Assembly (NCBI GenBank): GCA_000165345.1
Contig: CM000430.1
Coordinates: 921,970 to 985,969, forward strand
Direction: 5' to 3'
DNA: 64,000 nt
How positions within the stretch are numbered: the stretch's first letter is position 1; each line of letters begins with the position of its first letter. The position numbers were made by a program. Below, in pieces: positions 33,001-36,000 of the stretch.

Positions 33001-36000
33001 AAATATATAAATAAAGTATAAGAAGTATGTTATTAAATATTTGATATAATTAATTTTAATTAAGCGGACTAATATTAATTGGAATAACTTTAATGTAAAA
33101 CAGACCGCTCCTCTTAATAGCGACGCATATTAAGTTCGTCTAAGAAAACTTTGTAGACTATTAACCATCTTTTTTTCTTTGGTTTTTTGAGCAGTTCCCA
33201 AAATGAAATTAAACATTGCTAATCCAACAACAGGACTTCAGAAATGTATTGAAATTGACGACGAGAAGTTACTCTTACCTTTCTTCGAAAGAAGAATTGG
33301 TTCTGAACTTGACTGTAGCTTCTTGGGTGAGGAATTCAAGGGTTATATTTTGAAAATTACCGGTGGTAATGACAAACAAGGCTTTCCAATGATGCAGGGT
33401 GTTTTAACAAGTAATCGTGTTCGTCTTTTATTCAGAAAAGGTATGAAATGCTATCGCCCACGTCGCACAGGTGAAATGAAGAGAAAGTCAGTCCGTGGAT
33501 GCATCGTTAGCCATGACTTATCTGTATTAAGTTTGGTAGTTGTTGAGAGAGGAGAGCAGGATATTCCAGGACTTACTGATGGTGAAAAGCCAAGACGCCT
33601 TGGACCAAAGAGAGCTTCTAAGATCAGAAAGCTATTCAACCTCAGCCCATCTGATGATGTTCGTAAATTCGTTGTTCGCAGAAAGATTGAAGGTAAGGAA
33701 AAGACTAAGGCACCAAAGATCCAACGTTTGGTCACCAAGGAACGTTTACAGAGAAAGAAGAAATATAGACGTACACTCAAGGAGCGTTCTGAGGCATCTG
33801 CTAACGCCAAGAAGGAATACCAGAAGCTTCTTGAGACTTTGAAGGAGAACAAGACTAATACTAAATAAGTTGGTAAATGACTGTAATAGTTATATTTAGT
33901 GAGTGCCTTATTACTAATAACTAGATGGTTAAAAACGTGCTCACTACTATTCCTGTTTATTTATAACACTTTAATTTAGCTTCTATTCAGTTTAAATAAT
34001 TTTCATTAGGAAAAGTACCAAATTTTTTTTTTCAATATTACATTTATTAGCTACTAATCCTTGATACTCACAACTTTGGGATTTTTACCACCCTAACGAT
34101 CATTCCATTACTATTCACCCTTCCATTAAAATATGAGAGTAATACGTATTTTTTTTATCATTTATATTACGCCCTACATTCCAATTTATTTCTTCCCTAT
34201 TTCTGTAAATCTTTAGATTTTCGTCAAGCATCTTTGTATAAAATGACATGGGCATCATCCCGCCATATGGCGGGAAGTTTTACATGCATTATTTTATATA
34301 AATACGAGAATGACGAAAAGAGAGATGTTAAAAAAACTATCTAAGTAGGGGAAATTGAAAAGCATTGAAAGAAATCTTGAGATGCATATCAAAAAGGTGA
34401 ATCCGTGGTTTGCGGTAATTTTATGTATATCATTATTAAATGGGATAAGTATTTGGGACCGAATTCAATTAAATTTGGATAGGGGAGATGATACAGGAGC
34501 AAGTATTTCATATTTACAGCTGGAAATACAAAATCAAAATGGAGCTAAAAATATTTTTAACCCCTTAAGAATTAAGAATAATCAACTCAACTCTTTAGAT
34601 CAACAATTTTCTTCTCAAGTCAAACCCAAAGCATACACAACCTCGAAAGGTTTAAAAACATTATTGGTTTCTGACAATACTATGTTAGAGTCAGCTTTTT
34701 CATTTGGGATTGGATGCGGATATTATCAAGATCCTGATAATTTGGCAGGTCTGGCTCACTTGATGGAACATGTCGTGTTTTTGGGGAGTCAAGAAAATCC
34801 AAACCCAGTAGGCTGGGATGAGTTTCTATTAAAAAAGGGAGGCGCTGCCAATGCTTACACATCAGCAGATACAACAATATTTTATGTGTTGTCACCTCCA
34901 AGAGAGTTAGAGTCCGTAATGAGCTATTTTACCAAGATGCTTGTTAACCCTGTAATAGATGAAAGGAGTTCAGTTTCTGAAATCGATGCAGTTAACCAAG
35001 AACATGAAAAGAATATCCCAAACAAGGTCAGAGCAATGATAGAGCTAGCTATGTACTTAGCTCCGGAGGAATGCCCTGCAAGGAAATTTGGTACAGGAAA
35101 CAAAGAAACTCTTTATATTAATTCAAAAAAGAATAATATAAATCTCAAAGATGCCTTGAAGGAATATCACACAAATTGTTATACTAGCGACAACGCTTCA
35201 ATAGTTATCATGGGACCCCAATCTAACGAGGAACTAGTCAAAATCGCTGACAAGATTGACGGGCTTTTTACAAACTCCGGAAAAGCTACTAAAGGAATTT
35301 CTAAGATTACTAACACCGTAACTAGTCGTTCTGACTCGAGAACATTTAAAAACCAGCATTCTCTTGCCCCAGGTATTTTAAGTATTTTTGAAAGCTCTGG
35401 TAATAGAAAGTCTAATATTGGAATTAGCTCTACAGGTAGGATCACTTCAAGACAAACAGAATCGAAAAATAAAGAGACCAACCAAGATTCAATAAAAAGT
35501 AAATCACCAAATACAGAGATTGAGGTAGTGAGAATGCCAAGAGGAAGCTCATCTCCTCCTTTTGTCATAATTTATTGGGATTCAGTTTCAGATTCATTAA
35601 GCATCTTAAGGGAGAATGCTGAATGGCAAATGTTAAAGCTAATTCAATACTTCTTTGAAGACCAAAGCCAAAACTCGATTGCAACTGAGCTACAGAAAAG
35701 AAAATTAGCTACTGCTTTAGAATACTTTGATAATACTAGTACTCAATACTCCGTCTATGGCTTGCTATTTACTGCAACAGATGATTCTGATCAAACAACT
35801 TCAGAAATAGCAAAACTTACGTCAGCATACATGGAAAGTTTGATAGAACAGATAAACAGCAAAGATGATAAGTGGATTCAATCATTCTATAAGAACTATA
35901 CAAATATGGCAAATATTAAGTACGAGTATGACGAGGAAAGAGACACTGCAGGAATAGCCTCTCAGGCTGCTGAAAGCTTATTAATCTTCCCAGATGAGCC

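What the first reader, a model, noticed from the sequence alone, without database searches (positions are those of the whole stretch)
34258..34275. Recurrent E2F-like GGCGCC/CCCGCC boxes in almost every promoter of the gene-dense region, often paired or palindromic
GC-rich boxes stand out from AT-rich intergenic DNA at 1347-1357, 7901-7947, 18414-18434, 20178-20198, 25398-25422, 32915-32937, 34258-34275, 40867-40874, 42742-42752, 44427-44434, 44727-44736 and 45572-45583. Forms are TTTGGCGCC, TGGCGCCA, TTTCCCGCC and TTTCGCGC. Several are inverted pairs; the most extreme is the perfect 18-bp palindrome TCCCGCCATATGGCGGGA upstream of the insulinase-like gene. The TGGCGCCA-type E2F-like motif is reported as over-represented upstream of C. 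parvum genes. Here it is near-ubiquitous, including divergent promoters and genes unrelated to DNA replication. It is absent upstream of the three subtelomeric orphan genes.
Basis: partly seen in the sequence, partly recalled or inferred. Interest (0 to 1): 0.5.

Follow-up and report, generated by a model that had tools for sequence, protein, structure and literature searches.

The report
Known E2F-type promoter boxes in Cryptosporidium
The GC-rich GGCGCC/GGCGGG boxes are real, highly non-random promoter elements of this Cryptosporidium parvum chromosome end and keep their positions across the genus, but they are the already published "E2F motif", so the finding is sound and not new.

Summary
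The window is the telomeric end of a ~0.99-Mb Cryptosporidium parvum chromosome. All 12 listed boxes are at the stated coordinates.

GGCGCC occurs 12 times against 0.82 expected from dinucleotide shuffles. An unbiased k-mer scan ranks GGCGCC(A) and GGCGGGAA first among non-low-complexity words. The site logo is TTT-GGCGCC-AAA, the canonical E2F/DP consensus.

Of 27 cores, 25 are non-coding. They fall in 16 of 19 promoter-bearing spacers and in 0 of 8 convergent spacers. Close pairs are about 11-fold over-represented.

In syntenic loci from nine other Cryptosporidium species (proteins 43-86% identical) many boxes keep their position as conserved islands, including the 18-bp palindrome, kept as CGCC-N4-GGCG in all 8 aligned sequences.

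The subtelomeric 12 kb is depleted: 1 weak site against about 15 expected.

All of this matches published work (Oberstaller 2013/2014; ATAC-seq preprint 2025), which calls E2F the most abundant upstream motif in C. parvum. Binding by the parasite's E2F/DP proteins has never been shown.

Small additions here are the genus-wide footprint, the conserved pairing, and neighbouring conserved elements (TTTACATGCAT, GTCTCG).

Verdict: real, correctly interpreted, already known.

The parts
34258..34275 (.). Perfect 18-bp palindrome TCCCGCCATATGGCGGGA. It is two inverted E2F-type sites, (T)TCCCGCC and GGCGGGAA, 10 bp centre to centre, 110-120 bp upstream of the M16 insulinase-like gene (ATG 34382).
   Evidence: Alignment A1 has CGC and GGCGG invariant in all 8 sequences, while the 4-bp spacer varies (ATAT, ACAT, ACGT, AAAT, ATTT, ATTC, ATAC, CTGG). 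The position is -100 to -122 in the six sequences that keep a strict core.
34279..34289 (+). TTTACATGCAT, an AP2_1-type (TGCAT/GCATGCA) element next to the palindrome.
   Evidence: TTT.CATGCA is invariant in all 8 sequences and the rest nearly so (A1). The motif class is from PMC3734150.
1347..1358 (.). TTTGGCGCCAAC, a full palindromic E2F consensus 209 bp upstream of the UQ_con-domain gene (ATG 1562).
3943..3948 (.). GGCGCC 287 bp upstream of the cyclophilin gene (ATG 4233).
6310..6315 (-). GGCGGG (read on the minus strand) 192 bp upstream of the SAP-domain gene (ATG at 6120, minus strand).
   Evidence: Conserved at -178 to -202 in C. ubiquitum and C. felis.
7901..7947 (.). Cluster of three cores (GGCGCC 7905, GGCGGG 7918, GGCGGG 7940), 372-407 bp upstream of the IMC-protein gene (ATG 8315) and downstream of tRNA-Cys.
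   Evidence: Clusters of 3-5 cores lie in the same spacer in C. ubiquitum, C. felis and C. xiaoi.
11083..11090 (.). CGCGCGCC, 356 bp upstream of the 229-aa gene (ATG 11444). Weakly supported.
   Evidence: No core in the C. ubiquitum spacer; cores elsewhere in that spacer in C. felis and C. xiaoi.
13079..13090 (+). TTTCCCGCCAAC, a canonical E2F site 171 bp upstream of tRNA-Phe and 503 bp upstream of the TMEM230/134 gene.
   Evidence: GGCGGGAA is conserved at the same place in C. ubiquitum and C. felis.
13472..13483 (.). AAAGGCGCGCAG (CGCGCCTTTGCG on the other strand), 348 bp upstream of the 155-aa gene (ATG 13826).
   Evidence: CGCGCCTTTGCG is identical in C. ubiquitum and C. felis at -319 to -344; C. 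xiaoi has GGCGCCATTGCG.
18414..18434 (.). Inverted pair ACCGCCAAAT-G-TTTGGCGCCG in the divergent helicase/Ost-alpha promoter (245 bp from the Ost-alpha ATG, 528 bp from the helicase ATG).
   Evidence: The pair is retained in C. ubiquitum, C. felis and approximately in C. xiaoi.
19984..19989 (.). TGGCGCCA in the last 15 nt of the Ost-alpha ORF, 344 bp upstream of the next gene (ATG 20328). One of only two cores inside coding DNA.
20180..20191 (+). TTTTCCCGCCCA, 145 bp upstream of the spliced 475-aa gene (ATG 20328).
   Evidence: CATG(T/C)(G/A)GGCGGGAA is conserved in C. felis and C. xiaoi.
25398..25422 (.). Direct pair TTTGGCGCCC / ATGGCGCCA, 15 bp apart, 230-245 bp upstream of the P-type ATPase gene in a divergent spacer.
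   Evidence: Pairs spaced 11-18 bp at the same distance in chipmunk genotype I, C. ubiquitum, C. canis, C. felis and C. ryanae.
32915..32942 (.). Pair ATGGCGGC / TTGGCGCC, 14 bp apart, followed by GTCTCG. It lies 269-283 bp upstream of ribosomal protein S6e in the spacer shared with the GCFC/G-patch gene.
   Evidence: GGCG(C/G)CGTCTC is present in all 8 sequences, and the upstream GGCGG partner in 7 of 8.
40867..40874 (.). AGGCGCCA, 197 bp upstream of the 274-aa gene (minus strand) and 605 bp from the Maf ATG.
   Evidence: Same position (189-197 bp) in chipmunk genotype I, C. ubiquitum, C. canis and C. felis.
42742..42752 (.). GTGGCGCCACA, 21 bp upstream of the ATG of the 161-aa gene (minus strand).
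   Evidence: Conserved at 21-38 bp in chipmunk genotype I, C. ubiquitum, C. felis and C. ryanae.
44427..44434 (.). GGCGCCAA, 32 bp upstream of the thioredoxin-reductase-like gene (minus strand).
   Evidence: Present at 32-35 bp in chipmunk genotype I and C. ubiquitum and at 72-100 bp in C. canis, C. felis and C. bovis.
44727..44736 (.). GCTGGCGCCC, 75 bp upstream of the spliced Sybindin gene (44805-45362), which plain ORF scanning misses.
   Evidence: Present at 55-67 bp in chipmunk genotype I, C. canis and C. felis and at 129 bp in C. bovis.
45564..45583 (+). TTGTCTCG-TTTTCGCGCCAA, an E2F box with an invariant 5' neighbour, 156 bp upstream of the MAP-kinase-2 gene.
   Evidence: CGCGCC is present in 8 of 8 sequences at 149-194 bp. 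TTGTCTCG and CGCGCC are invariant in alignment A2.
54870..54881 (+). TTCGGCGGGTGT, the only core in the subtelomeric 12 kb and the weakest of all. It lies 442 bp upstream of orphan gene 53432-54433(-). Possibly chance.

Best explanation
The boxes are functional promoter cis-elements of the E2F type (consensus TTT-GGCGCC/GGCGGG-AAA). They most likely act as binding sites for the E2F/DP winged-helix heterodimers that Cryptosporidium, alone among apicomplexans, has kept.

In this very compact genome they behave as a general promoter-marking element and not as a cell-cycle switch. One box or a close pair sits 20-400 bp upstream of most start codons, often in the middle of divergent gene pairs. It probably recruits E2F/DP to open chromatin and set where transcription starts. 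Neighbouring elements such as TGCATGCA (AP2-type) would add stage specificity.

Shown here: sequence match to the E2F consensus, strong enrichment, restriction to promoter-bearing spacers, pairing, and positional conservation across the genus.

Taken from the literature: the genome encodes E2F and DP proteins, and the motif dominates open-chromatin peaks.

Inferred: that E2F/DP is the protein that binds, and that binding activates or positions transcription.
For: Enrichment. GGCGCC is 12 against 0.82 expected and GGCGSS 38 against 5.25. These are the top non-low-complexity k-mers in an unbiased intergenic scan. The signal is specific among all-G/C hexamers.

Consensus. The logo from 37 oriented sites is TTT-GGCGCC-AAA.

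Location. Cores occur in 16 of 19 promoter-bearing spacers against 0 of 8 convergent spacers (P = 7e-5). Only 2 of 27 cores are coding (P = 3e-10). Across the window and seven species, density is 2.1 per kb in promoter spacers, 0.35 in convergent spacers and 0.40 in coding DNA. None of 11 further convergent spacers has a core.

Conservation. The same hexamer sits at the same place in 48% of species comparisons against 17% for background hexamers (P = 5e-6). The kinase box is present in 8 of 8 sequences, the S6e box in 8 of 8, and the insulinase pair in 8 of 8 in alignment.

Pairing. Five close pairs against 0.45 expected.

Literature. E2F is the most over-represented upstream motif (PMC3734150, PMC4117751). 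It is the top motif in ATAC-seq peaks (10.1101/2025.01.17.633476). Two E2F and two DP genes are listed in PMC12246861.
Against: No experiment has shown that Cryptosporidium E2F/DP binds these sites; review PMC12246861 says most regulatory components lack validation.

The genes served are not a cell-cycle or replication regulon, and Rb-family partners are reported absent (PMC3734150). Any mechanism must therefore differ from the textbook E2F-Rb switch.

About 4 of 24 internal genes have no box of their own.

C. muris has few strict cores, 0.61 per kb.

Some boxes turn over between species (spacers D and S7).

Two boxes lie only 21-32 bp from the annotated ATG, which is unusual for an upstream activator unless 5' UTRs are very short.
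Confidence: 0.8

Rival explanations
1. The boxes are real promoter elements but are bound by a factor other than E2F/DP, for example an ApiAP2 domain, a C2H2 zinc finger or another GC-box binder. On this reading the resemblance to the E2F consensus is coincidental.
For: No binding data exist for Cryptosporidium E2F/DP (PMC12246861). The regulon is not cell-cycle-like. Many sites read ATGGCG or GGCGCCACA, so there are flank preferences beyond the classic consensus.
Against: The match covers the core and also the T-rich and A-rich flanks. Both known E2F variants, GGCGCC and GGCGGGAA, are enriched together. Protein-binding microarrays of C. parvum AP2 domains recovered TGCAT, CACACA and G-box motifs and no E2F-like motif (PMC4117751). 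Cryptosporidium is reported to be the only apicomplexan genus that keeps E2F/DP (PMC3734150).
Confidence: 0.1
2. The boxes act mainly through DNA properties. Short GC-rich islands in very AT-rich DNA would exclude or phase nucleosomes without needing a sequence-specific factor.
For: The boxes stand out from 20-30% GC spacers. They coincide with open chromatin in the literature (10.1101/2025.01.17.633476).
Against: Only the E2F arrangement of G and C is enriched; equally GC-rich hexamers are absent. Exact core bases are invariant across species while adjacent bases drift, which fits base-specific protein contacts. The boxes persist in GC-richer species such as C. canis and C. ryanae, where they no longer stand out by composition.
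Confidence: 0.05
3. The 18-bp palindrome at 34258-34275 works as a hairpin, either a DNA cruciform or a stem-loop in the insulinase 5' UTR, and not as two protein-binding sites.
For: It folds as a 7-bp stem of -8.4 kcal/mol, z = -2.95. Across 8 sequences, 91% of cells stay paired, and one outer pair changes on both sides (CG, AU, GC).
Against: The four core pairs never vary, so they carry no information. The covariation score is reached by 30 of 500 shuffles. A two-fold symmetric protein site gives the same pattern. Each arm is a canonical E2F site. The other pairs in the window are direct or differently spaced and cannot form hairpins.
Confidence: 0.04
4. The pattern is a chance or compositional artefact of scanning AT-rich DNA by eye.
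For: None beyond the weak, non-conserved sites at 10021, 11083 and 54873.
Against: Enrichment is about 15-fold over dinucleotide shuffles, and 0 of 100 shuffles reach the observed count. Promoter restriction and cross-species conservation also argue against it.
Confidence: 0.01

Closest known systems
The 'E2F' upstream motif family of Cryptosporidium parvum (5'-TGGCGCCA-3', [C/G]GCGC[G/C], GGCGGG). Noted by Bankier et al. 2003 as cited in PMC3734150; Oberstaller et al. 2013 (PMC3734150) and 2014 (PMC4117751); ATAC-seq preprint 10.1101/2025.01.17.633476; review PMC12246861.
   Same: Same organism, same core sequences and same location upstream of genes. Also the same near-ubiquity, the same presence before ribosomal-protein and other non-replication genes, and the same association with bidirectional promoters. 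This window is simply a local instance.
   Different: Nothing differs in kind. Three details documented here were not found in those papers: positional conservation of individual boxes across nine other species (the earlier comparison used only C. hominis at 95% identity, PMC1779779); significant close pairing with conserved spacing; and near-absence from the subtelomeric 12 kb.
Canonical eukaryotic E2F/DP binding site TTTSGCGCS (E2F4-DP2 crystal structure, Zheng et al. 1999, and Arabidopsis TTTCCCGCC, both as cited in PMC3734150).
   Same: A 6-bp symmetric CG core flanked by T-rich and A-rich sequence. Both the GGCGCC and GGCGGGAA variants occur, close to start sites of TATA-less promoters.
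   Different: In animals and plants the sites mark a cell-cycle and DNA-replication regulon controlled by Rb-family pocket proteins. Here they precede most genes of any function, and Rb orthologues are reported absent (PMC3734150).
ApiAP2 motif AP2_1 (TGCATGCA), the other major C. parvum upstream motif.
   Same: Also palindromic, enriched in intergenic DNA (CATGCA 19 against 6.7 expected) and conserved next to several boxes.
   Different: It has a different sequence and a different, experimentally tested binder (AP2 domains, PMC3734150). It is much less enriched in this window: GCATGCA is 8 against 3.4 expected.

Membership tests
E2F/DP binding site (cis-element) | Core [C/G]GCGC[G/C] or GGCGGG, with a T-rich 5' flank and an A-rich 3' flank (TTTSGCGCSAAA) | tested here: met
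   The logo of 37 oriented sites reads T,T,T-G,G,C,G,C/G,C/G-A,A,A. Individual sites include TTTGGCGCCAA, TTTCCCGCCAA, GGCGGGAA and TTTTCGCGCCAA.
E2F/DP binding site (cis-element) | More frequent than composition-matched chance | tested here: met
   GGCGCC is 12 against 0.82 expected and GGCGSS 38 against 5.25. In intergenic DNA GGCGCC is 11 against 0.25. Other all-G/C hexamers are not enriched.
E2F/DP binding site (cis-element) | Located in promoter regions, not in coding DNA or 3'-3' spacers | tested here: met
   16 of 19 promoter-bearing spacers against 0 of 8 convergent spacers, and 2 of 27 cores in coding DNA. The pattern is the same in the other species examined.
E2F/DP binding site (cis-element) | Under purifying selection: conserved in orthologous promoters | tested here: met
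   Cores are conserved islands across species whose proteins are 43-86% identical.
E2F/DP binding site (cis-element) | Cognate E2F and DP proteins are encoded by the genome | not tested
   These genes are outside the window. The literature lists cgd1_1560 and cgd6_1430 (E2F) and cgd7_3650 and cgd8_1850 (DP) (PMC12246861).
E2F/DP binding site (cis-element) | Physically bound by E2F/DP (ChIP, EMSA or protein-binding microarray) | not testable with these tools
   No such data were found in the literature searches. The review PMC12246861 states that validation is lacking.
Classical E2F-Rb cell-cycle regulon | Target genes are mainly DNA-replication and cell-cycle genes | tested here: not met
   Genes with boxes include cyclophilin, an IMC protein, transporters, ribosomal protein S6e, an M16 peptidase, Maf, a thioredoxin-reductase-like enzyme, Sybindin and a MAP kinase.
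Conserved nucleic-acid hairpin (for the 18-bp palindrome only) | Base pairs maintained by compensatory changes | tested here: inconclusive
   91% of cells are paired. One of 7 pairs changes on both sides, 3 pairs never vary, and 30 of 500 shuffles reach the observed score.
ApiAP2 AP2_1 site (TGCATGCA) | Core TGCAT / GCATGC | tested here: not met
   The boxes contain no TGCAT core. Separate TGCAT-type elements lie next to some of them.

The most novel reading that the evidence does not exclude
E2F-type boxes, often as close pairs at conserved 10-18-bp spacing, are the genus-wide generic promoter-organising element of Cryptosporidium. On this reading they act as a pioneer-like core-promoter mark for bidirectional and unidirectional promoters alike, not as a cell-cycle switch.

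Same-strand downstream genes that lack a box (GIY-YIG after the insulinase gene, the Patched-like gene after the kinase) would then be expressed by read-through or polycistronic transcription from the upstream boxed promoter. The box-free subtelomeric genes would use a separate, AP2-type or heterochromatin-controlled mode.
Probability: 0.3. Interest if true: 0.5.

Novelty: already known. Interest (0 to 1): 0.22.

Why it matters
Cryptosporidium is a major cause of childhood diarrhoea and its gene regulation is barely understood. The E2F-type box is the best candidate for its main promoter element.

This window gives a clean, quantified example of that. It also adds evidence of purifying selection on individual boxes and on their pairing across the genus, which strengthens the case that they are functional.

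It points to specific, compact test cases. The 18-bp pair before the insulinase gene and the 8-of-8 conserved kinase box could be used in reporter or ChIP experiments. It does not change the current picture.

Tried and rejected
GTCTCG as a general motif. It lies beside two boxes and is conserved there, but it is not enriched in the window: 4 against 4.95 expected. I treat it as a local neighbour only.

TACCGG and GCATGCA. They are only modestly enriched: 10 against 3.9 and 8 against 3.4.

Degenerate boxes. A relaxed matrix scan of the box-less promoters (38123-38505, 47427-48033, the Maf-proximal region and the subtelomeric spacers) found nothing.

Hairpin test on the palindrome. The result was inconclusive.

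RNA genes. I looked for hidden RNA genes in the long spacers and found only two tRNAs.

Polycistron lists. I tried to read them from the supplement of the 2025 preprint, but no files are held.

Bankier et al. 2003 is not held, so it is cited second-hand.

'One box per direction'. I considered whether pairs mark this in divergent promoters. Four of the five close pairs are in divergent spacers, but the numbers are too small to claim it.

Not attempted: confirming the E2F/DP proteins by database search. A query with a metazoan E2F domain would be swamped by animal sequences.
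Full report
**What the window is.** The 3' end carries about 600 bp of TTTAGG telomere repeats. Four proteins encoded in the window are identical to Cryptosporidium parvum proteins on contigs of about 0.99 Mb, and the last one is annotated 'gene anchored to telomere'. The window is therefore the last 64 kb of a C. 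parvum chromosome.

The gene model rests on three sources: long ORFs, Pfam, and the C. parvum annotation recovered through exact-protein look-ups. It has 27 protein-coding genes. These include a spliced Sybindin gene (44805-45362) and a spliced 475-aa gene starting at 20328, both of which plain ORF scanning misses. There are also two tRNA genes.

**Check of the observation.** All twelve listed intervals contain the stated sequences, including the perfect palindrome TCCCGCCATATGGCGGGA at 34258-34275.

- GGCGCC occurs 12 times against 0.82 expected from dinucleotide-preserving shuffles; none of 100 shuffles came close. The wider class GGCGSS gives 38 strand-hits against 5.25.
- A k-mer scan of intergenic DNA that was not told what to look for ranks GGCGCC, GGCGCCA, GGCGCCAA, CCCGCC and GGCGGGAA first among words that are not A/T runs. 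CATGCA comes next.
- The effect is not general GC-richness. Among all 36 strand-collapsed all-G/C hexamers, GGCGCC (11) and CCCGCC (8) dominate intergenic DNA. GCCGGC, CCGCGG, CGGCCG, GGGCCC and CCCGGG occur 0 times.
- The logo from 37 oriented sites is TTT-GGCGCC-AAA.

**Where the boxes are.**

- Of 27 strict cores, 2 lie in coding DNA although coding DNA is 66% of the sequence (P = 3e-10). One of those two is in the last 15 nt of an ORF, upstream of the next gene.
- Sixteen of 19 promoter-bearing spacers carry at least one core, against 0 of 8 convergent (3'-3') spacers (Fisher P = 7e-5).
- Distances to the nearest downstream ATG run from 21 to about 400 bp where the assignment is unambiguous (with refinements).
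- Close pairs are real. Five intra-spacer gaps of 7-25 bp were seen against 0.45 expected if sites fell uniformly in their spacers, a count reached in 0 of 20,000 simulations.
- The genes served are functionally varied: cyclophilin, an IMC protein, a POLQ-like helicase, two transporters, ribosomal protein S6e, an M16 peptidase, Maf, a thioredoxin-reductase-like enzyme, Sybindin and MAP kinase 2.

- The list omits boxes at 3943, 6310, 11083/11085, 13082, 13475 and 19984.
- The promoters of the GIY-YIG gene (38123-38505) and the Patched-like gene (47427-48033) have no box, even with a relaxed matrix.
- Tim17 and TMEM230 are separated from the nearest box by tRNA-Cys and tRNA-Phe, and their own proximal DNA has none. 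About 20 of 24 internal genes therefore have an unambiguous box.
- The subtelomeric 12 kb is not strictly empty. It has one weak GGCGGG at 54873, the lowest-scoring of all strict sites. The depletion is still strong: 1 site against about 15 expected at the internal promoter-spacer density (P = 6e-6).

**Evidence from related sequences.** Orthologues of the insulinase gene and of the helicase gene were found in nine other species at 43-86% protein identity: Cryptosporidium sp. chipmunk genotype I, C. ubiquitum, C. canis, C. felis, C. ryanae, C. bovis, C. xiaoi, C. muris and C. serpentis. Ten syntenic loci from eight of these species, all but C. serpentis, were fetched with 10-kb flanks. Gene order is identical to the window.

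Across the window and seven species in the insulinase-anchored region, core density is 2.1 per kb in promoter spacers, 0.35 in convergent spacers and 0.40 in coding DNA. None of 11 further convergent spacers in the helicase-anchored loci has a core.

Individual boxes keep their place:

- TTTCGCGCCAA lies 149-194 bp upstream of the kinase in 8 of 8 sequences.
- GGCG(C/G)CGTCTC lies 221-299 bp upstream of S6e in 8 of 8.
- The ATPase pair persists at 11-18-bp spacing in six of the eight sequences.
- The IMCp cluster, the inverted Ost-alpha/helicase pair, CGCGCCTTTGCG, and the GGCGGG boxes before the SAP-domain and 475-aa genes are all retained.

An alignment-free control was run on the window's promoter spacers. 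The exact core hexamer recurs within +/-40 bp of the same anchored position in 48% of species comparisons, against 17% for all other hexamers (Mann-Whitney P = 5e-6).

In the alignments the cores are conserved islands in otherwise diverged DNA: mean column identity is 56-57%.

There is also turnover. C. felis, C. ryanae and C. bovis have a box before GIY-YIG where C. parvum has none. The weak sites at 10021 and 11083 are not conserved. C. muris has few strict cores and more degenerate forms.

**The palindrome.** Alignment A1 shows the two arms in all eight sequences, with CGC and GGCGG invariant. The 4-bp spacer is free (ATAT, ACAT, ACGT, AAAT, ATTT, ATTC, ATAC, CTGG), and TTTACATGCAT, which is almost invariant, follows immediately. 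The perfect 18-bp symmetry is therefore a C. parvum accident of the spacer. What is conserved is two inverted E2F-type sites 10 bp apart next to an AP2-type element.

I tested a hairpin reading. The DNA folds at -8.4 kcal/mol and 91% of cells stay paired. However, the four core pairs never vary, only one outer pair changes on both sides, and 30 of 500 shuffles do as well. This is inconclusive, and a two-fold symmetric protein site predicts the same pattern.

**Mechanism.** The best-supported reading is that these are binding sites for the parasite's E2F/DP heterodimers and that they act as a general promoter mark.

- Shown here: the consensus match, enrichment, promoter restriction, pairing and selection.
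- From the literature: C. parvum encodes two E2F and two DP proteins, expressed mainly in asexual stages (PMC12246861). [quoted passage not shown] It is the top motif in sporozoite ATAC-seq peaks, more than half of which are bidirectional promoters (10.1101/2025.01.17.633476).
- Inferred: that E2F/DP is the binder and that binding opens chromatin or positions initiation. No binding experiment was found.

The system differs from the textbook E2F-Rb switch in that the targets are not a cell-cycle regulon. Rb orthologues are also reported absent (PMC3734150).

**Comparison with what is known, and novelty.** The finding is a local instance of a published genome-wide feature of C. parvum, so it rates 'already known'.

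I did not find three modest details in the papers read. The first is a deep cross-species footprint of individual boxes; the earlier comparison used only C. hominis at 95% intergenic identity (PMC1779779). The second is the statistically supported close pairing with conserved spacing. The third is the near-absence of boxes from the subtelomeric orphan genes.

One testable idea follows. The two box-less promoters both sit behind same-strand genes, so they may be served by read-through or polycistronic transcription.

**Verdict.** The phenomenon is already known and interest is low to moderate.

Noticed in passing
window 63962-64000: After the telomere repeats the window ends in GGGGATCCCCCCAGAGTCGACCCGCAGGCAGCAAGCGAG. 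This is about 85% similar to the pUC-type polylinker (BamHI-XbaI-SalI-PstI-SphI-HindIII; polylinker sequence recalled from memory). It is probably a low-quality cloning-vector remnant left in the assembly.
   Followed up: partly
window 7702-7774 (+) and 12837-12911 (-): tRNA-Cys(GCA) and tRNA-Phe(GAA) genes sit inside two 'divergent' spacers, between Tim17 / TMEM230 and the nearest E2F boxes. The TTTCCCGCCAAC box at 13079 is 171 bp upstream of tRNA-Phe.
   Followed up: partly
window 34279-34289: TTTACATGCAT lies directly 3' of the palindrome and is almost invariant in all 8 aligned Cryptosporidium sequences, with TTT.CATGCA fully invariant. This suggests a composite E2F-pair plus AP2-type promoter module.
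   Followed up: partly
window 45564-45642: The kinase promoter holds a string of deeply conserved elements besides the E2F box: TTGTCTCG, a T-run, two TACCGGTA palindromes (45607-45614 and 45635-45642) and CGCATGCAGAT. TACCGG is mildly enriched in the window, 10 against 3.9 expected. No known factor is assigned.
   Followed up: partly
window 32937-32942 and 45566-45571: GTCTCG abuts an E2F box in both the S6e and kinase promoters and is invariant across species there. It is not enriched window-wide, 4 against 4.95 expected. It may be a start-site or initiator-like element.
   Followed up: partly
window 44805-45362: A spliced Sybindin (TRAPP subunit) gene of 139 aa is invisible to plain ORF scanning. 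It is annotated in C. parvum and in all seven species of the insulinase-anchored loci.
   Followed up: yes
window 24781-25242 (-): This ORF is annotated as a separate 144-167-aa gene in C. ubiquitum, C. felis and C. xiaoi, but is fused to the downstream gene in chipmunk genotype I (1078 aa). The gene models disagree between genomes. If it is a gene, the 25401/25416 pair lies about 160-175 bp from its start.
   Followed up: no
window 38123-38505 and 47427-48033: These are the only two internal promoter spacers with no E2F-type site. Both follow a gene on the same strand (insulinase to GIY-YIG, kinase to Patched-like), which makes them candidates for read-through or polycistronic transcription. 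C. felis, C. ryanae and C. bovis do have a box before GIY-YIG.
   Followed up: partly
window 51880-63330: The subtelomeric region has long AT-rich spacers (GC 0.21-0.25) and three orphan genes without Pfam domains. It has almost no E2F boxes. A TGCATGCA at 54718 lies 285 bp upstream of gene 53432-54433(-).
   Followed up: partly
window 9494-11443 and 12582-13825: Two unusually long spacers for this compact genome are long in the other species too (about 1.5-2.3 kb and 1.2-2.2 kb). Apart from tRNA-Phe, nothing is annotated or found by Rfam. They might hold unannotated transcripts.
   Followed up: partly
L007 (C. muris) and L005 (C. ryanae): C. muris has few strict cores (0.61 per kb of promoter spacer) and uses degenerate forms such as GGCGGT and GGCGCT. 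C. ryanae is so GC-rich that cores are as frequent in coding DNA as in spacers.
   Followed up: no
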